Assembly (NCBI RefSeq): GCF_003334815.1
Contig: NZ_QOWO01000018.1
DNA length: 64,000 bases
Strand: one strand, 5' to 3'
Source: Escherichia coli
Lineage (GTDB): Bacteria; Pseudomonadota; Gammaproteobacteria; Enterobacterales; Enterobacteriaceae
The notes under the pieces were generated by a model. That model saw nothing but the letters and a program-made list of their open reading frames with translations, had not been told where the DNA came from and ran no database searches. Position numbers and translations under genes: made by a program. Shown here piece after piece: positions 37,419-41,611 of this stretch (its first letter is position 1; each line of letters starts with the position of its first letter).

Positions 37419-37814
37419 ATGAAAACGGTCATCACCTTCGGCACCTTCGATGTGTTTCATGTCGGTCATCTGCGCCTTTTACAACGCGCCCGCGCATTGG
37501 GCGAGCGGCTGCTGGTCGGCGTATCGTCCGACGCCCTGAACATCGCCAAAAAGGGCAGGGCACCGGTTTACCATCAGGATGACCGCATGGCGATCATCGC
37601 CGGGCTGGCGTGCGTGGATGGCGTATTTCTGGAAGAGTCGCTGGAGCAAAAAGCGGAGTATTTGCGCGGGTACAGTGCGGATATTTTAGTGATGGGGGAT
37701 GACTGGGCAGGGAAGTTTGACAGCTTTGCGTATATTTGTGAGGTGGTCTATTTCCCCCGCACGCCGTCGGTGTCGACGACGGGGATTATTGAGGTGATTA
37801 GAGGGCTTTTATAA
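37419..37814 (+). CDS. Glycerol-3-phosphate cytidylyltransferase (TagD-like, CDP-glycerol synthesis)
   Basis: 131-aa product MKTVITFGTFDVFHVGHLRLL...ILVMGDDWAGKFDSF...CEVVYFPRTPSVSTTGII with HxGH and RTxGISTT motifs; ATG at 37419. Confidence 0.8.
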   Translation: MKTVITFGTFDVFHVGHLRLLQRARALGERLLVGVSSDALNIAKKGRAPVYHQDDRMAIIAGLACVDGVFLEESLEQKAEYLRGYSADILVMGDDWAGKFDSFAYICEVVYFPRTPSVSTTGIIEVIRGLL

Positions 37815-37839
37815 AGTACTAAAACAGAGATGTATTTTC

Positions 37840-37930
37840 TTGCCGGATGCGGCGTAAACGCCTTATCCGGCCTACAGGACGTGATCGATCCGTAGGCCTG
37901 ATAAGCGAAGCGCATCAGGCAGTTGCGCGG
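37840..37930. repeat. REP pair (BIME) between convergent cytidylyltransferase and glycosyltransferase genes
   Basis: Two inverted REP palindromes. Confidence 0.7.
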
Positions 37931-37931
37931 T

Positions 37932-40376
37932 TTACCCCAGCGCCTCCACAATCACAATCGCCGCCCGTTCTCCCGCCTTGCCATCCATAAACGCATCGCA
38001 ATAGTGATGGCGAATCTCCGTAAGCCGCGCCTGCACCGACCCCCAGTCAAACGCCTCTGACAACAAATAACGCAGTTCTGCAACATCATGAGCAACCGGC
38101 AATATTTCGCGGATTCGCTGGTCGGCGCTCTCTGCCGTGGAATAACTTTTCTCACCGTCGAGCAAATCATTCATGCCCGGAAAGTCGAGCAGGATCACCC
38201 GCTTATCAACGTGGATAGCATCGAAAATAAACCCGCTGTTATCGGTCAGCACGTAATCGGCTTTTGCCAGCAGCGCCAGCGTGTGGCGGGCGGAGTCGGT
38301 GCGCTGTTTTAAATGCCTGCGCACCAGGGCCAGCGATGCTGCTTCTTCCGGGCGTGAGCAGGTGCCATGGTGCAGTTTGCAAATCAGGTTCACATCACCG
38401 CTCAAGCGGCCCAATTTTTCAGCCCAGTGGGGCAGGGAGCTTAATGCGCCAAACGTTGGGGCATAGAGCACCGTAGGTTTACGGTAATCTGATTGGATGT
38501 TTTCCGGCAACGCGCGATCGAACGTGCCGTTATGCCAGGCGTCGAAGCGCGGGTTGCCGACCACTTTTGCGCTGCCGAAATGCGCCAGCGCCTGCTGACT
38601 GTAGTGGCTATAACACAAAATGCTTTGGTAAAAACGATTCCAGTCGGCGTGGTTCCACGTCTCTTTGGCTAAGCCGTACATAGCGCGGATGTTCACCGCC
38701 GCCAGGCCATTGAGCGCAGGCGTGTGGTAGGGGCTGACCAGGCATTTCACCCGCTGACCATGTGTCTGCATTTCTGACAGACGCATACCTTTAAGCTGCG
38801 GATCGTCGATGTTTTTCAGTGTTTCCAGCATCTCATCAAGAAACGGTTTAAACACGCGGTCATTGATCACTAGTGTGCAGCTCTGCCCCTGCGCCTGTAG
38901 AGCGGTGATGATTGGGCGGTACAGCGTGTAGTGGAATGAGGTTTCCATAAAAAAGCCGATGGTATCGGCGATGGGTAATGTAGATGGCTTGGTGGCTACG
39001 GGTAACTTATTGAAATAGTGAGCAATATTATCAGTCGTTTTTTTCTCGATATCACTAAAACCCGGTCGCTGGTAGCAAAGGCTCGGGTAACAGGCCAGCC
39101 ATTTGTCGGCGCGTAGCAGCGGCTGCCAGCAGGCTTCCAGCGAGTGCTCATCGTTGCTCATCTGCTGCGCCAGTTGCGGGTAGTAGCGGCTGTTCACCAG
39201 ATACGCGCACACTTTGCGGCAGTCCCGCGCGTGCACCAGCCCCGGCAAACTTTTTAGCATCGTTCCCTGCGAAATTTCGCCACCGAGGATCATCACCTGC
39301 CAGGGAATTTTCGCCAGGCTCGCCAGCAGCGTGTTCAGTACCTGAATATGTTTCTCCTGCTTGAGAATAACCGCGTCATCTTCCAGCAGCAGGTAGTTTT
39401 GCCAGCCGTGCTGTTGCGCCAGGCGCAGCGCCTGTAAGTGCGACTGACGGCGGCCCCGTTGACCGTTTTCATCTTCACTGGCGGCAAGGCGGGTGATCTT
39501 CTCAGGTGGAATATGCAGCAATGCCAGTTCTTCACGGATCTGTTGTAAGCGATCCGGGCGTTTATCCAGATTCAGCAGAACGATCTGATCGATCGCCTGA
39601 TGGTTGATCGCCTGGTGATGAGTGGCGTTATGCAGACTCAGATAAGCATTGCGCAGCAGCGGATCGCGGACGATATCCGTAAGCGCCGCGTTTACTGGCG
39701 TGCTGGCCCCGAGAATAAAATCTTTATCAAAGGTGTTGTGACTATGCGAGATACACAGAATCGTGCGCTCGCCGGGCAGTTGCAGCGGGTTTACGCTGAA
39801 ATTGTCGGTGAAACGTTTCTCTTCGCCTAAATTGCAATCATCGTCGTAACGGTGCTTTTTCAGGTAGTTACGGTGATAGCAAAAGGTGCCGTTGAGGATG
39901 TTATGCGGGCCAAAGCTGCGGCTTTGAAAGATGCGGTTGATGTGGCTGTACCAGATGGGGATCTGATCGGAGCCGGAGATGAGCGCCCGGTGTTTTTGCA
40001 TCATGGCGATGGTGTAAGAGATTTTATCTGCCGGGTAGTAGTCGTCATCGTCCATGCAGAGGATGTATTCGCCGCGCGCCAGTTCGTTGAGCATGTTGCG
40101 TTTTTTGCCCAGCGGCAGTTTTTCCGGGTGATGGATGTAGCGGATGTTAAAGGCTTCCGGCGTGCCATTGGTCAGGCGGTCGATGATGTGTTGATGGCTT
40201 TGTGGGGAATCGTCGAGGATGATGAGTTCGCGGCGGTCTGCCGGGTAATCCTGATAGCGGTACATATAGAGCAGGTACGGCAGGAATGCGCCGCGGTTCC
40301 AGGTTGGCGTGACGACGCTGACAAACGGTTTTTCGCGGTGGGTGTTGAGTGTTTTGATGATGGTTGGTGTTGGCAT
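37932..40376 (-). CDS. Multidomain glycosyltransferase (N-terminal GT-A/GT2-like, central GT25-like, C-terminal TagB/TagF-like CDP-glycerol glycerophosphotransferase)
   Basis: ORF 37932..40448; ATG at 40376 chosen (upstream residues lie in the inverted-repeat element); motifs VSVVTPTWNR, ILDDSP, DDDDYY, central VLLNLDKRPDRL, C-terminal VLYAPTF / YVLTDNSGFIFDAIHVDKRVILL. Confidence 0.65.
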   Translation of the reverse strand: MPTPTIIKTLNTHREKPFVSVVTPTWNRGAFLPYLLYMYRYQDYPADRRELIILDDSPQSHQHIIDRLTNGTPEAFNIRYIHHPEKLPLGKKRNMLNELARGEYILCMDDDDYYPADKISYTIAMMQKHRALISGSDQIPIWYSHINRIFQSRSFGPHNILNGTFCYHRNYLKKHRYDDDCNLGEEKRFTDNFSVNPLQLPGERTILCISHSHNTFDKDFILGASTPVNAALTDIVRDPLLRNAYLSLHNATHHQAINHQAIDQIVLLNLDKRPDRLQQIREELALLHIPPEKITRLAASEDENGQRGRRQSHLQALRLAQQHGWQNYLLLEDDAVILKQEKHIQVLNTLLASLAKIPWQVMILGGEISQGTMLKSLPGLVHARDCRKVCAYLVNSRYYPQLAQQMSNDEHSLEACWQPLLRADKWLACYPSLCYQRPGFSDIEKKTTDNIAHYFNKLPVATKPSTLPIADTIGFFMETSFHYTLYRPIITALQAQGQSCTLVINDRVFKPFLDEMLETLKNIDDPQLKGMRLSEMQTHGQRVKCLVSPYHTPALNGLAAVNIRAMYGLAKETWNHADWNRFYQSILCYSHYSQQALAHFGSAKVVGNPRFDAWHNGTFDRALPENIQSDYRKPTVLYAPTFGALSSLPHWAEKLGRLSGDVNLICKLHHGTCSRPEEAASLALVRRHLKQRTDSARHTLALLAKADYVLTDNSGFIFDAIHVDKRVILLDFPGMNDLLDGEKSYSTAESADQRIREILPVAHDVAELRYLLSEAFDWGSVQARLTEIRHHYCDAFMDGKAGERAAIVIVEALG

Positions 40377-40401
40377 GGTGTTTGGGTGAGTTAATGGGTG
40401 A

Positions 40402-40548: not shown

Positions 40549-40554
40549 AGCGAC

Positions 40555-41484
40555 TCACGTTAGCAGCGAAAACGCTGAAAGCAGCGGGTCGGCGGCACAT
40601 AACGACTGAATTTGCTGGCGAACCAACAGCGCATTTTCACTGGCTCGCCAGCGTTCAAACATGGCAAAGAGGGCGAAAATATCCTCCTGCCGCAGCGAAG
40701 AACCATCCAGCGTCCATAAACTGATTAACGTGCGGAGGAGATAAAAATCGCACACCAGCGGGAAATAATCCGCCCCGTCAGTCTGCCCAATCACATCGTG
40801 GTAAACGCGGTAAATCAGCCAGTTACGCATCATCCAGGGCGCGGTGGCAAAATGCTGTTGCCAGGTGGTTTGCCACTGCGTCTGAAGCTGCTGTTGTAAC
40901 AGGGCTTCGCTGTTAGCGTCATGCAGCGTCAGCAAAGGCATCTGCAACGGCAGCGAAGTTTTGCGCGGGCTTTCCGGCAAAATCGACCAGTCAAACGTAA
41001 AACTCCCGAGTAACGTGGCCAGGTGACGCGCCAGCTGTGGCACGGGCGGCAGCTGGGCGAACTGTGCCTGTAGGATGCCTTTTTTCGCATGATCGGCCAG
41101 CGCCTGCGGCAGCGTCGTCAAACGGGCAAGAATATCTCCGTCTCTGCCCGGCATTTTACTGGCGCGGGAGAGCAGGATACCGACGGCATACAATGACAGT
41201 TCTGGTGTTAAATCACGGAGCGTGAGGGTACTCAAAATCACCTGGTTTACTATCGCATCGCGCGCGGAAAGCTCTGCGGCATTTTCTTCCACAGGACGGT
41301 AGGTGAGCTGTAAATCAAAGGCCCTGACATCGTTGAGCATCGCTTCGCAGCTTTCTGGCTCTGTCAGCATCAGGCTCAGGCGAATCTCGTTTTTCCACAC
41401 CTTGCGGACGTATAAAGGCGAACCGGGGTATTGCGTCATAAAATTGCGCACGTATTCCGGTTCGTAACATTCAATAAAACTCAT
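40555..41484 (-). CDS. Hypothetical protein (Flag-2 accessory, unknown function)
   Basis: 309-aa ORF from the ATG at 41484; no recognisable motifs; sigma-54-type promoter upstream. Confidence 0.6.
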   Translation of the reverse strand: MSFIECYEPEYVRNFMTQYPGSPLYVRKVWKNEIRLSLMLTEPESCEAMLNDVRAFDLQLTYRPVEENAAELSARDAIVNQVILSTLTLRDLTPELSLYAVGILLSRASKMPGRDGDILARLTTLPQALADHAKKGILQAQFAQLPPVPQLARHLATLLGSFTFDWSILPESPRKTSLPLQMPLLTLHDANSEALLQQQLQTQWQTTWQQHFATAPWMMRNWLIYRVYHDVIGQTDGADYFPLVCDFYLLRTLISLWTLDGSSLRQEDIFALFAMFERWRASENALLVRQQIQSLCAADPLLSAFSLLT

Positions 41485-41518
41485 AGGTGGCTTCCAGTCT
41501 TTAATGCTGTGCAGGATG

Positions 41519-41534
41519 TGCAATAAGCGTGCCG
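41519..41534 (-). promoter_or_regulatory. Sigma-54-type promoter (-24 GG / -12 GC) upstream of the hypothetical/glycosyltransferase genes
   Basis: Minus strand reads CGGCACG-CTTA-TTGCA (plus strand tgcaataagcgtgccg), matching TGGCACG-N4-TTGCA at 14 of 15 fixed positions with correct GG/GC spacing; about 35 bp upstream of the ATG at 41484. Confidence 0.55.
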
Positions 41535-41611
41535 GGATTTTTTGTAGTCAAAAACAAGGGATTGGCAATCAGGCGGAAAATCCGTTTCCGCGATGGGGGA
41601 AGGTATTGTCG

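What the first reader, a model, noticed from the sequence alone, without database searches (positions are those of the whole stretch)
37419..41535. Teichoic-acid-like CDP-glycerol module inside the lateral flagellar locus
Wedged between the FliJ homologue and the flgN/flgM/flgA homologues are three non-flagellar genes: a 131-aa protein with the hallmarks of glycerol-3-phosphate cytidylyltransferase (TagD-like; HxGH in GTFDVFHVGH, VMGDDWAGKFD, RTPSVSTTG), an 815-aa protein combining a GT-A/GT2-like N-terminus (DDDD), a GT25-like middle section and a C-terminus resembling TagB/TagF CDP-glycerol glycerophosphotransferases, and a 309-aa protein with no recognisable motifs. A CDP-glycerol-making enzyme next to a glycerophosphotransferase is the logic of Gram-positive teichoic acid synthesis; embedded in a Gram-negative flagellar regulon it suggests glycerol-phosphate or glycan decoration of lateral flagellin (LafA has a Ser/Thr-rich central region) or another flagellar component. 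I cannot recall a characterised system of this type.
Basis: partly seen in the sequence, partly recalled or inferred. Interest (0 to 1): 0.7.

Follow-up and report, generated by a model that had tools for sequence, protein, structure and literature searches.

The report
Glycerol-phosphate flagellin glycosylation cassette, E. coli Flag-2
Three genes inside the second (lateral, Flag-2) flagellar gene cluster of E. coli most likely decorate the lateral flagellin with a short sugar carrying a phosphate-linked glycerol; the cassette and this idea were already published from comparative genomics in 2020, comparable flagellin-modifying enzymes are known in other bacteria, and nobody has yet shown the modification itself.

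Summary
The large protein is 814 aa, not 815. The "motif-less" 309-aa protein is LafV, a relative of the flagellin methylase FliB.

The window is E. coli Flag-2, variable region VR1, between lfiJ and lfgN. About 1270 of 5426 complete E. coli genomes carry the module.

- **Gene 1** is a full-length TagD homologue (PDB 1COZ, E 4e-33).
- **Gene 2** is a three-domain fusion:
  - GT2.
  - A GT25-like GT-A domain; together with GT2 it gives a COLGALT1-like tandem.
- **Split form:** in Pantoea the TagF-like part is a separate gene beside tagD.
- **Co-occurrence:** tagD is present in 19 of 22 loci with the TagF-like domain and 0 of 4 without it.

All three proteins lack transmembrane segments and show dN/dS of 0.04-0.20. 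A conserved sigma-54-type promoter sits upstream of lafV.

Best reading: cytoplasmic O-glycosylation of LafA, capped with phosphoglycerol from CDP-glycerol. This parallels C. difficile FtaD and P. aeruginosa FgtA. De Maayer et al. (2020) already proposed it in silico.

What appears new here is the hidden TagF-like domain in "GT2-1". Also new is that E. coli LafV has lost the Fe-S cysteine motif FliB needs. There is no experimental proof, and Flag-2 expression has not been detected in the one E. coli strain whose test I read (EC958).

The parts
37419..37814 (+). tagD-like gene (131 aa): predicted CTP:glycerol-3-phosphate cytidylyltransferase, which would supply CDP-glycerol
   Evidence: ORF. 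Pfam CTP_transf_like E 2.8e-19. TIGR01518 scores 115 bits, below the 165 cut-off. PDB 1COZ (B. subtilis TagD) E 4.3e-33 over residues 1-130. The ATG is 2 nt after the lfiJ stop, with a GGAG upstream. dN/dS 0.04-0.09. Single copy in 1277 of 5426 E. coli genomes.
37832..37925 (.). REP/BIME-type repeat between the convergent tagD and glycosyltransferase genes
   Evidence: This stretch matches every one of the 5426 E. coli genomes many times (query positions 936-1025). Sub-threshold Rfam naRNA4 hit.
39615..40376 (-). Glycosyltransferase, N-terminal GT2 (GT-A) domain, residues 1-254 of the 814-aa protein. The CMDDDD motif is invariant.
   Evidence: Pfam Glycos_transf_2 E 2.4e-17. Found in 28 of 28 homologues. 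CMDDDD conserved in all loci compared. The ATG is at 40376.
38985..39614 (-). Glycosyltransferase, middle GT25-like GT-A domain, residues 255-464. The LEDD motif is invariant.
37935..38984 (-). Glycosyltransferase, C-terminal TagF/TagB-like GT-B domain, residues 465-814: predicted CDP-glycerol phosphotransferase
40398..40554 (.). Palindromic repeat element of about 150 bp inserted between lafV and the glycosyltransferase gene
   Evidence: Sequence. It is absent from strain LS4, where the gap is 46 bp. No Shine-Dalgarno sequence is visible before the glycosyltransferase ATG. Its function was not tested.
40555..41484 (-). lafV (309 aa): FliB_C-domain protein without the FliB iron-sulfur cysteine motif
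   Evidence: NF038110 at 43 bits, matching profile positions 105-363 of 373. Pfam PF27117 FliB_C in homologues. The alignment shows the cysteine motif deleted. AF2 pLDDT 91.5 with no PDB fold match. dN/dS 0.15-0.20.
41519..41534 (-). Sigma-54-type -24/-12 promoter element (CGGCACGCTTATTGCA), ending 35 nt upstream of the lafV start codon
   Evidence: One mismatch to TGGCAC-N5-TTGCW. A GGCAY-N6-TTGC element is found upstream of lafV in 19 of 21 loci from several genera, although the flanking sequence has diverged.
54948..55862 (+). lafA, the lateral flagellin (304 aa) and presumed substrate
   Evidence: ORF. 34 of 105 residues in 131-235 are Ser or Thr. Lys occurs only at positions 19, 47, 92, 234, 277 and 290.

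Best explanation
This is the flagellin-modification cassette (variable region VR1) of the E. coli Flag-2 lateral flagellar locus. It most likely works in the cytoplasm, before LafA is exported.

**Proposed steps**
1. The TagD-like enzyme condenses CTP with sn-glycerol-3-phosphate to give CDP-glycerol.
2. The 814-aa enzyme O-glycosylates Ser/Thr in the central segment of LafA with one or two sugars, using its GT2 and GT25-like GT-A domains.
3. Its TagF-like GT-B domain transfers glycerol phosphate from CDP-glycerol onto a sugar hydroxyl and releases CMP. The product is a phosphodiester-linked 'post-glycosylation modification'.

**Regulation.** The cassette is transcribed with the early flagellar genes. 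tagD sits at the end of the lfiEFGHIJ operon. lafV and the glycosyltransferase gene follow their own sigma-54 (LafK-type) promoter.

**LafV.** It is a FliB-derived protein that has lost the Fe-S ligands, so it probably no longer methylates lysine. Its role is unknown; a flagellin-binding or scaffold partner is a guess.

**Shown here:** gene content, domain identities, co-variation, purifying selection and promoter conservation.

**Inferred:** the substrate (LafA), the donor (CDP-glycerol), the order of steps, and a single glycerol-phosphate cap rather than a polymer.
For: **Enzyme identities**
- TagD homology runs the full length of the protein, with the HxGH and RTxxxSTT motifs.
- The C-terminal domain is TagF-like by fold and by profile.
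- The His corresponding to TarL H433 is conserved. TarL H433 is essential for activity (PMC10901376).

**Coupling of tagD to the TagF-like domain**
- tagD is present in 19 of 22 loci that have the TagF-like domain and a complete VR1, and in 0 of 4 loci whose glycosyltransferase lacks that domain.
- In two of the three tagD-less loci the donor-site motifs have diverged.
- In Pantoea the same four modules are separate adjacent genes.
- In E. coli, tagD (1277 genomes) and the whole module (1270 genomes) have nearly the same prevalence.

**Flagellar context**
- The cassette lies between lfiJ and lfgN in every species examined.
- tagD is translationally coupled to lfiJ.
- A sigma-54 promoter upstream of lafV is conserved.

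**Cytoplasmic action and maintained function**
- None of the three proteins has a transmembrane segment.
- I saw no flippase or lipid-carrier gene in the annotated locus.
- dN/dS is 0.04-0.20 for every gene and domain, similar to lfgN.

**Substrate.** The central part of LafA is 32% Ser/Thr.

**Precedent.** C. difficile CD0240 (GT2) plus the TagF-like FtaD add a CDP-activated phospho-group to the flagellin O-GlcNAc; FtaD activity was shown in vitro on an O-GlcNAc FliC peptide. P. aeruginosa FgtA (PA1091) is predicted to fuse the two activities (PMC10714395; bioRxiv 10.64898/2026.02.12.704994).
Against: - No chemical evidence exists for any modification of E. coli LafA.
- LafA was not detected in E. 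coli EC958 under the conditions tested (PMC4637896).
- The TagD-like protein scores below the NCBIfam equivalog cut-off (115 against 165 bits). The position equivalent to B. subtilis K46 is Gly in the HMMER alignment.
- On the E. coli protein alone, Pfam Glyphos_transf is only E 0.011.
- The catalytic-base His (TarL H300 / TagF H444) could not be located by sequence alignment. W574-N-H576 is only a candidate.
- One locus (L024) keeps intact TagF-like motifs without tagD.
- The N-terminal GT2 domain is poorly modelled (pLDDT below 50 for residues 110-254).
- The co-occurrence counts are not phylogenetically independent.
Confidence: 0.55

Rival explanations
1. Teichoic-acid-like polymer. The fused glycosyltransferase and TagF-like domains act iteratively, as in TagF-like capsule polymerases, and build a poly(glycosyl-glycerol-phosphate) chain. 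The chain is attached to LafA or made free, instead of a single phosphoglycerol cap.
For: The best sequence match in PDB is the capsule polymerase Cps3D (E 6.1e-10). Cps3D and Bcs3 also appear among the fold hits. Fusing a glycosyltransferase to a TagF-like domain is the architecture of those polymerases (PMC5974469, PMC8262930). De Maayer et al. worded their proposal as 'glycopolymers' (PMC6993521).
Against: Flagellin is exported unfolded through the narrow flagellar type III channel (established knowledge), which argues against a long anionic chain. No export or lipid-anchor genes accompany the cassette. No membrane-binding helices are evident. The characterised flagellin systems add a single phospho-group (PMC10714395).
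Confidence: 0.12
2. The cassette modifies something other than the filament protein. Candidates are another exported flagellar protein (hook, cap, junction proteins) or a cell-envelope glycan. Its position in VR1 would then reflect a hotspot for cargo genes.
For: VR1 is a documented integration hotspot that carries unrelated cargo such as restriction systems and fimbrial genes (PMC6993521). GT25 and GT2 enzymes commonly act on LPS. The promoter is the early (sigma-54) type, not the late flagellin type.
Against: The same gene set stays between lfiJ and lfgN across Escherichia, Citrobacter, Enterobacter, Pantoea and Leminorella. A relative of the flagellin methylase FliB accompanies it in most loci, though not in L023 or L024. 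I found no membrane or lipid-carrier components. tagD is translationally coupled to lfiJ.
Confidence: 0.12
3. The activated donor is not CDP-glycerol. The TagD-like enzyme would activate another phospho-alcohol, or use another nucleotide, so the group added is not glycerol phosphate.
For: TIGR01518 is below its equivalog cut-off, and RefSeq names the protein only 'adenylyltransferase/cytidyltransferase family protein'. The K46 equivalent is not conserved in the alignment. TagF-like FtaD uses CDP-N-methylthreonine, which shows that donor range in this family is wide (bioRxiv 10.64898/2026.02.12.704994).
Against: The two best PDB hits are both glycerol-3-phosphate cytidylyltransferases (E 4e-33 and 1e-26), well ahead of ethanolamine-phosphate cytidylyltransferase (6.5e-17) and choline-phosphate cytidylyltransferases (from about 3e-6). 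No phospho-alcohol biosynthesis gene accompanies the E. coli cassette, and glycerol-3-phosphate is a ubiquitous metabolite.
Confidence: 0.1
4. The cassette is a silent relic in E. coli. Flag-2 is not expressed, so these genes do nothing in practice.
For: No LafA was detected in EC958 in broth or soft agar at 28 or 37 degrees C (PMC4637896). From my own recollection of Ren et al. 2005, which I could not read here, strain 042 has an lfgC frameshift. An inserted repeat element and the absence of a visible Shine-Dalgarno sequence precede the glycosyltransferase gene in this strain.
Against: The whole locus is annotated without pseudogenes in the matching strain. dN/dS of 0.04-0.20 in all three genes, equal to neighbouring core flagellar genes, indicates continuing selection. 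The promoter element is conserved.
Confidence: 0.1

Closest known systems
C. difficile Type A flagellin glycan pathway (CD0240 GT2 plus FtaABCD; FtaD = CD0244)
   Same: A GT2 enzyme puts a sugar on flagellin Ser/Thr. A TagF-like GT-B phosphotransferase then adds a phosphodiester-linked group from a CDP-activated donor made by a locus-encoded cytidylyltransferase. Everything is cytoplasmic and encoded beside flagellar genes (PMC10714395; bioRxiv 10.64898/2026.02.12.704994).
   Different: The donor there is CDP-N-methylthreonine. It is made by an NTP-transferase-fold enzyme (FtaB) together with FtaA and FtaC. Here the activating enzyme is TagD-type, and there are no amino-acid or methylation genes. 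Here the glycosyltransferase and phosphotransferase are fused, and a second GT-A (GT25-like) domain is present. I did not test direct sequence similarity to FtaD.
P. aeruginosa PAO1 b-type flagellin glycosyltransferase FgtA (PA1091)
   Same: One polypeptide is predicted to combine the glycosyltransferase and the TagF-like phosphotransferase in a Gram-negative flagellin glycosylation island (PMC10714395).
   Different: Its donor is predicted to be a CDP-dimethylthreonine. It has no GT25-like domain and no TagD. It serves the polar flagellum. I did not compare the sequences.
Wall teichoic acid enzymes TagD, TagB/TagF and TarL (B. subtilis, S. epidermidis, S. aureus)
   Same: The small protein aligns with TagD over its full length. 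The C-terminal domain has the same GT-B fold and the same donor-side motifs, including the His equivalent to TarL H433.
   Different: Those enzymes are membrane-associated and act on a lipid-linked acceptor to make long polymers. Here I found no membrane-binding segment. The acceptor-side half shows no sequence similarity. The Arg of the APTFR/APTWR motif is Gly (LYAPTFG).
TagF-like capsule polymerases of Gram-negative pathogens (Cps3D, Cps7D, Bcs3)
   Same: These are multi-domain fusions of a glycosyltransferase with a TagF-like phosphotransferase in Gram-negative bacteria, partnered with CDP-glycerol supply. Cps3D is the best PDB sequence hit (E 6e-10).
   Different: They sit in group 2 capsule loci with ABC-transporter export and lipid primers, and they polymerise. 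Here the context is flagellar and no export genes are present.
Salmonella FliB flagellin lysine N-methyltransferase (comparison for LafV)
   Same: They share the FliB_C domain and the N-terminal 'YEPEYVR.F' strand, and both are encoded next to flagellar genes.
   Different: FliB-type proteins are 390-430 aa and always carry CX4CX3CC (59 of 59). That motif binds the [4Fe-4S] cluster required for methyl transfer (PMC8598068). E. coli LafV is 309 aa, lacks that motif and about 80 further residues, and has no conserved Cys.
Human collagen galactosyltransferase COLGALT1/GLT25D1
   Same: It has a tandem GT-A plus GT-A(GT25) arrangement and is the top Foldseek hit across about 550 columns. It is also a protein-glycosylating enzyme.
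   Different: Sequence identity is about 14%. It acts on hydroxylysine in the ER, and in my recollection its first GT-A domain is non-catalytic. Here both GT-A domains keep acidic DxD-type motifs. This is a resemblance of fold only.

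Membership tests
CTP:glycerol-3-phosphate cytidylyltransferase (TagD/TarD) | HxGH nucleotide-binding motif near the N-terminus | tested here: met
   GTFDVFHVGH, with H14 and H17 aligned to B. subtilis TagD.
CTP:glycerol-3-phosphate cytidylyltransferase (TagD/TarD) | RTxGISTT C-terminal motif and full-length similarity to solved TagD structures | tested here: met
   RTPSVSTT. 1COZ E 4.3e-33 over residues 1-130; 2B7L E 1.3e-26.
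CTP:glycerol-3-phosphate cytidylyltransferase (TagD/TarD) | Score above the curated equivalog cut-off of TIGR01518 | tested here: not met
   115.1 bits against a cut-off of 165.4. RefSeq names it only a cytidyltransferase-family protein.
CTP:glycerol-3-phosphate cytidylyltransferase (TagD/TarD) | Lys44/Lys46 pair, which I recall as implicated in substrate binding | tested here: inconclusive
   K44 aligns. Position 46 is Gly, flanked by K45 and R47, with a two-residue insertion nearby. The role of these residues rests on my memory of the TagD literature.
CTP:glycerol-3-phosphate cytidylyltransferase (TagD/TarD) | Makes CDP-glycerol | not testable with these tools
   Needs an enzyme assay.
TagB/TagF/TarL CDP-polyol phosphotransferases (Pfam Glyphos_transf, PF04464) | GT-B fold closest to TagF/TarL | tested here: met
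TagB/TagF/TarL CDP-polyol phosphotransferases (Pfam Glyphos_transf, PF04464) | Significant sequence or profile match to the family | tested here: met
   The E. coli protein alone reaches only E 0.011. However, 9 of 28 orthologues reach <= 1e-3, best 1.7e-8. The family profile hits Cps3D at 6.1e-10 and TarL at 1.3e-5. Stand-alone orthologues carry PF04464.
TagB/TagF/TarL CDP-polyol phosphotransferases (Pfam Glyphos_transf, PF04464) | Invariant donor-side His (TarL H433) | tested here: met
   The first His of KLHHGT (H669) aligns with TarL H433 in KMHP. KLHH is conserved in all 19 tagD-positive loci; Gly-Thr follows in those 19.
TagB/TagF/TarL CDP-polyol phosphotransferases (Pfam Glyphos_transf, PF04464) | Invariant catalytic-base His preceded by Trp (TarL W299-H300 / TagF H444) | tested here: inconclusive
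   The acceptor-side half does not align by sequence. The candidate is W574-N575-H576-A577, present in 25 of 28 orthologues. H482 is invariant and is an alternative. I had no access to model coordinates to superpose.
TagB/TagF/TarL CDP-polyol phosphotransferases (Pfam Glyphos_transf, PF04464) | Monotopic membrane association through amphipathic helices and a lipid-linked acceptor | tested here: not met
   The maximum 19-residue hydropathy is 1.42, so there is no hydrophobic segment. This test is crude, because amphipathic helices were not analysed. The result is consistent with a soluble protein acceptor, as for FtaD.
GT2 glycosyltransferases | GT-A domain with an acidic DxD-type motif | tested here: met
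   PF00535 E 2.4e-17. CMDDDD is invariant.
GT25 glycosyltransferases | Match to PF01755 or a GT25 fold | tested here: inconclusive
FliB flagellin lysine N-methyltransferase | N-terminal CX4CX3CC motif that binds the [4Fe-4S] cluster required for activity (PMC8598068) | tested here: not met
   E. coli LafV has Cys only at positions 6, 46, 245 and 296, none of them conserved across the family. The motif region is deleted.
FliB flagellin lysine N-methyltransferase | Score above the NF038110 cut-off | tested here: not met
   43.4 bits against a cut-off of 85. Only profile positions 105-363 of 373 are matched.
FliB flagellin lysine N-methyltransferase | Surface-exposed lysines in the cognate flagellin | tested here: not met
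   LafA has no Lys between residues 93 and 233.
Flagellin post-glycosylation phospho-modification systems (C. difficile Fta / P. aeruginosa FgtA type) | A glycosyltransferase, a TagF-like phosphotransferase and a cytidylyltransferase encoded together next to flagellar genes | tested here: met
   The same set is found in Pantoea as separate genes.
Flagellin post-glycosylation phospho-modification systems (C. difficile Fta / P. aeruginosa FgtA type) | A phosphodiester-linked group on the flagellin O-glycan | not testable with these tools
   Needs mass spectrometry of LafA.

The most novel reading that the evidence does not exclude
E. coli lateral flagella are coated with a teichoic-acid-like poly(glycosyl-glycerol-phosphate) chain. 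The fused GT2/GT25/TagF-like enzyme would build it iteratively on LafA, working like a capsule polymerase re-targeted to a protein. The cysteine-less LafV would be a former iron-sulfur methylase re-used as the flagellin-recruiting subunit of this machine.
Probability: 0.08. Interest if true: 0.75.

Novelty: new variant of a known kind. Interest (0 to 1): 0.35.

Why it matters
**If confirmed.** In the literature I could search, this would be the first flagellin shown to carry glycerol phosphate. It would extend the newly defined class of CDP-donor 'post-glycosylation modifications' of flagellin from CDP-amino acids to CDP-glycerol. It occurs in a species as tractable as E. coli, where about a quarter of complete genomes carry the genes.

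**Possible consequences.** An anionic, teichoic-acid-like epitope on a Gram-negative flagellum could affect phage adsorption, immune recognition or surface behaviour.

**Practical value now.**
- The widespread 'GT2-1' flag-2 glycosyltransferase hides a TagF-like domain. This accounts for why De Maayer et al. counted far more TagD (235 strains) than TagB (65 strains).
- 'Lysine-N-methylase' is probably a wrong name for the Escherichia/Citrobacter LafV proteins.

**Limits.** The core idea is already published, and Flag-2 expression in E. coli remains undemonstrated.

Tried and rejected
- **Pfam on the E. coli proteins alone.** It gave only a marginal TagF signal (E 0.011) and no GT25 signal. I needed homologue sets, profiles and structure prediction.
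- **Whole-protein profile against PDB.** It found mostly GT2 hits, with TarL at only E 0.015. A sub-alignment of the C-terminal domain improved this to 0.0013. Adding stand-alone orthologues gave 6e-10.
- **Locating the catalytic-base His.** This question stays open.
- **Fold search for LafV.** A confident model gave no PDB match (best E 0.2), so the fold gives no functional clue.
- **LafV as an obligate adaptor.** I considered this and weakened it, because Pseudescherichia vulneris (L023) and a related MAG (L024) have the glycosyltransferase without lafV.
- **Link between LafV cysteine loss and the TagF module.** Rejected, because Pantoea has tagD and a TagF-like gene together with a Cys-containing LafV.
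- **Rfam scan of the region.** It gave only a sub-threshold REP-derived hit and spurious hairpin hits.
- **Genome scan patterns.** They were strict and recovered mostly the long fused form. Loci with the short form therefore came from only a few contig look-ups, so the 0-of-4 figure rests on few loci.
- **Ren et al. 2005.** The original Flag-2 paper is not held in the library. One contig look-up also found nothing.
- **Direct comparison with FtaD and PA1091.** Not possible, because I had no way to fetch those sequences.

Full report
**What is in the sequence**

The region holds the three ORFs described.
- A 131-aa gene lies at 37419-37814 (+). It starts two bases after the stop of the FliJ homologue lfiJ and has a GGAG eight bases upstream.
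- A large gene lies on the minus strand at 37932-40376.
- A 309-aa gene lies at 40555-41484 (-), directly downstream of lfgA-lfgM-lfgN.

The ATG of the large gene is at 40376. The protein is therefore 814 aa, not 815. My searches used an 815-codon query, so residue numbers in raw outputs are one higher than the true numbers used below.

The 5.2-kb stretch is 100% identical to E. coli strain 300709 (NZ_CP025903.1). It is present at >=80% coverage in 1270 of 5426 complete E. coli genomes. RefSeq calls the genes 'adenylyltransferase/cytidyltransferase family protein', 'glycosyltransferase' and 'hypothetical protein'.

The surrounding 40 kb is the Flag-2 lateral flagellar locus, lying between rayT (which follows yafL) and dinB. 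No pseudogenes are annotated in that strain.

**Gene 1 (TagD-like)**
- Pfam CTP_transf_like hits at E 2.8e-19.
- The best NCBIfam model is TIGR01518, glycerol-3-phosphate cytidylyltransferase. The score is 115 bits, under the 165-bit equivalog cut-off.
- Against solved structures the two best hits are B. subtilis TagD (1COZ, E 4.3e-33, residues 1-130 against 1-129) and the S. aureus enzyme (2B7L, E 1.3e-26).
- These are far ahead of ethanolamine-phosphate cytidylyltransferase (6.5e-17) and choline-phosphate cytidylyltransferases (from about 3e-6).
- HxGH and RTxxxSTT are present. K44 aligns, and the K46 position is Gly flanked by K45 and R47.

I read this as a TagD-type enzyme whose substrate is very probably glycerol-3-phosphate but is unproven.

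**Gene 2 (three domains)**

*Residues 1-254 (GT2).* Pfam E is 2.4e-17. The domain is found in 28 of 28 orthologues, and CMDDDD is invariant.

*Residues 255-464 (second GT-A domain).*
- The AlphaFold model is confident here.
- The top Foldseek hits for the whole protein are human COLGALT1/GLT25D1, which has the same tandem GT-A arrangement (E 1.5e-13, about 550 columns).
- Pfam GT25 is hit only in the Plesiomonas orthologue (5.4e-6).
- LEDD is invariant.

*Residues 465-814 (GT-B domain).*
- At sequence level the E. coli protein alone is marginal (Glyphos_transf E 0.011).
- Nine of 28 orthologues reach E <= 1e-3, best 1.7e-8.
- A profile of this domain plus its stand-alone relatives hits the TagF-like capsule polymerase Cps3D at E 6.1e-10 and TarL at 1.3e-5.
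- The aligned blocks are the donor-side signatures:
  - LYAPTFG, against TarL LFAPTFRG.
  - KLHHGT, against TarL KMHP. Here H669 aligns with TarL H433, one of the two histidines shown to be essential (PMC10901376).
  - LTDNSGFIFDA, against ISDYSSLIYEY.
- The acceptor-side half has no sequence similarity to TagF or TarL, so the catalytic-base histidine could not be placed. W574-N-H576-A resembles TarL W299-H300-A301 and is kept in 25 of 28 orthologues, but this is only a candidate.

**Evidence that TagD and the TagF-like domain work together**
- *Co-occurrence.* In one-genome-per-species loci fetched with the glycosyltransferase, tagD is present in 19 of the 22 loci that have the TagF-like domain and a fully visible VR1. 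All 19 keep the four motifs.
- *The three loci without tagD.* Leminorella and one Citrobacter-labelled genome have diverged motifs (WNF, APSLD/APALN, LLHNDD/VLQHGA). The third, L024, looks like a recent loss.
- *Other C-termini.* Four loci have a glycosyltransferase that lacks the domain or carries a different C-terminus; in L004 that C-terminus is a Capsule_synth domain. None of the four has tagD.
- *Split form.* The domain exists as a separate 350-375-aa gene, named 'CDP-glycerol glycerophosphotransferase family protein' and about 50% identical, in Pantoea, Cedecea, Rahnella, Enterobacter, Erwinia and Buttiauxella.
- *Pantoea locus.* In Pantoea agglomerans the flag-2 VR1 reads lfgN | TagF-like | tagD, lafV, GT2 | lfiJ. 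The E. coli protein is therefore a gene fusion of neighbours.
- *Prevalence.* tagD occurs once per genome in 1277 E. coli genomes, essentially the same set as the module.

These counts are not corrected for phylogeny, and the short-form sample is small.

**Evidence that the cassette belongs to the flagellar system and is maintained**
- It sits between lfiJ and lfgN in every genus examined.
- tagD is translationally coupled to lfiJ.
- A sigma-54-type element, CGGCACGCTTATTGCA, ends 35 nt before the lafV start. On its own this is not significant in the window: 9 matches against 3.9 expected. However, a GGCAY-N6-TTGC element is found upstream of lafV in 19 of 21 loci from several genera while the flanks diverge.
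- A perfect match also precedes lfgB.
- None of the three proteins has a hydrophobic segment. I saw no flippase, transporter or lipid-carrier gene. This fits modification in the cytoplasm before export.
- dN/dS against other Escherichia and Pseudocitrobacter species:

| Gene or domain | dN/dS |
|---|---|
| tagD | 0.04-0.09 |
| Three glycosyltransferase domains | 0.06-0.18 |
| lafV | 0.15-0.20 |
| lfgN (for comparison) | 0.08-0.10 |

- LafA (54948-55862, 304 aa) has 34 Ser/Thr among residues 131-235.

**Gene 3 (LafV)**
- It matches the FliB lysine-methylase model weakly (43 bits, cut-off 85) and only over profile positions 105-363.
- All close homologues are 309-315 aa with Pfam FliB_C.
- A search of 1.8 billion representatives separates two populations:
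  - Proteins of 390-430 aa that all (59 of 59) carry CX4CX3CC at about residues 17-27.
  - Proteins of 297-324 aa, the LafV type. Of these, 23 of 36 carry a CxCxxC motif at about 22-27.
- The Escherichia/Citrobacter subgroup has neither motif. The shared N-terminal strand YEPEYVR.F is followed by a deletion.
- FliB needs the cysteine-bound [4Fe-4S] cluster for methyl transfer (PMC8598068).
- LafA has no lysine between residues 93 and 233.
- The E. coli protein is therefore unlikely to be a FliB-type methylase, even though some databases name it one. It is nevertheless under purifying selection.
- Its confident model (pLDDT 91.5) has no PDB fold match.
- It is not obligatory for the glycosyltransferase, because two loci lack it. 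Cysteine loss is not tied to the TagF module, because Pantoea LafV keeps the cysteines.

**Most likely mechanism**
1. TagD makes CDP-glycerol.
2. The GT-A domains put one or two sugars on LafA Ser/Thr.
3. The TagF-like domain caps the glycan with glycerol phosphate.

The domain identities, the coupling and the regulation are shown here. The substrate, the donor and a single addition rather than a polymer are inferred.

The closest characterised precedent is the C. difficile Type A pathway. There the GT2 enzyme CD0240 adds GlcNAc to FliC. The TagF-like FtaD transfers phospho-N-methylthreonine from a CDP donor, which was shown in vitro on an O-GlcNAc FliC peptide. P. aeruginosa FgtA is predicted to fuse both activities (PMC10714395; bioRxiv 10.64898/2026.02.12.704994).

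**Rivals**
- A repeating teichoic-acid-like polymer. Cps3D-type capsule polymerases have the same fused logic (PMC5974469).
- A target other than the flagellin.
- A donor other than CDP-glycerol.
- Silence of the locus. LafA was not detected in E. coli EC958 (PMC4637896).

**What is already known**
- De Maayer et al. 2020 (PMC6993521) defined VR1 between lfiJ and lfgN. They listed GT2-1 (222 strains), TagD (235), TagB (65) and LafV (342).
- They proposed that teichoic-acid-type glycopolymers form part of the flag-2 flagellin glycan, and that LafV implies methylation.
- The finding is therefore not new as an observation or as a hypothesis.
- I found no paper reporting glycerol phosphate on a flagellin.
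- Two points appear to be additions:
  - GT2-1 carries a fused TagF-like domain, which accounts for the excess of TagD over TagB.
  - The Escherichia/Citrobacter LafV has lost the catalytic cysteine motif.

**Verdict**

This is a real, conserved and selected cassette. It is a variant of the known class of flagellin glycan phospho-modification systems, and it has already been predicted in print. It remains untested. Interest is moderate.

Noticed in passing
window 40555-41484 (lafV) and 54948-55862 (lafA): E. coli/Citrobacter LafV has lost the cysteine motif that FliB needs for its [4Fe-4S] cluster, and LafA has no lysine between residues 93 and 233. The database name 'lysine-N-methylase' is therefore probably wrong for this subgroup. 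The gene is still under purifying selection (dN/dS 0.15-0.20).
   Followed up: yes
window 41519-41534 (-) and 43179-43194 (+): There are two sigma-54-type promoter elements. One, with a single mismatch, lies upstream of lafV and is conserved in 19 of 21 loci from several genera. The other is a perfect TGGCACGGCGATTGCT just upstream of lfgB.
   Followed up: partly
window 40398-40554: A palindromic repeat element of about 150 bp sits between lafV and the glycosyltransferase gene in this strain. It is absent from strain LS4, where the gap is 46 bp. No Shine-Dalgarno sequence is visible before the glycosyltransferase ATG. Its effect on expression is unknown.
   Followed up: no
window 37832-37925; rayT at about window 23617-24114: REP/BIME repeats lie between the convergent tagD and glycosyltransferase genes and match all 5426 E. 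coli genomes many times. The REP-associated transposase gene rayT lies at the edge of the Flag-2 locus.
   Followed up: no
L004 7001-9628, L029 8971-11583, L005 7001-8386, L027 11246-13741: The C-terminal module of the flag-2 glycosyltransferase is interchangeable between species. Some versions carry a Capsule_synth (PF05159) domain, shown for L004, with an acetyltransferase and a separate GT25 gene nearby; L029 (Phytobacter) looks similar but its C-terminus was not scanned. Others have no third domain and sit beside methyltransferase, HAD and nucleotidyltransferase genes. One locus has an extra GT4+GT2 enzyme. None of these loci has tagD.
   Followed up: partly
L002 1938-4326 (E. coli strain LS4): Three extra hypothetical genes (115, 182 and 126 aa) are inserted between tagD and the glycosyltransferase gene in some E. 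coli strains.
   Followed up: no
window 49956-50165 (between lfgJ and lfgK): The window is 99.93% identical to NZ_CP025903.1 over window 20001-50165 (99.97% beyond). It has one copy fewer of a repeat of about 118 bp in this intergenic region, so it comes from a slightly different strain or assembly.
   Followed up: partly
L018 and L019, positions 11500-20400: In two genomes, one labelled Citrobacter and one labelled Chryseobacterium (probably a mislabelled or contaminated assembly), the flag-2 locus breaks off right after the glycosyltransferase gene and continues into unrelated genes. Cluster 1 and tagD are missing there.
   Followed up: no
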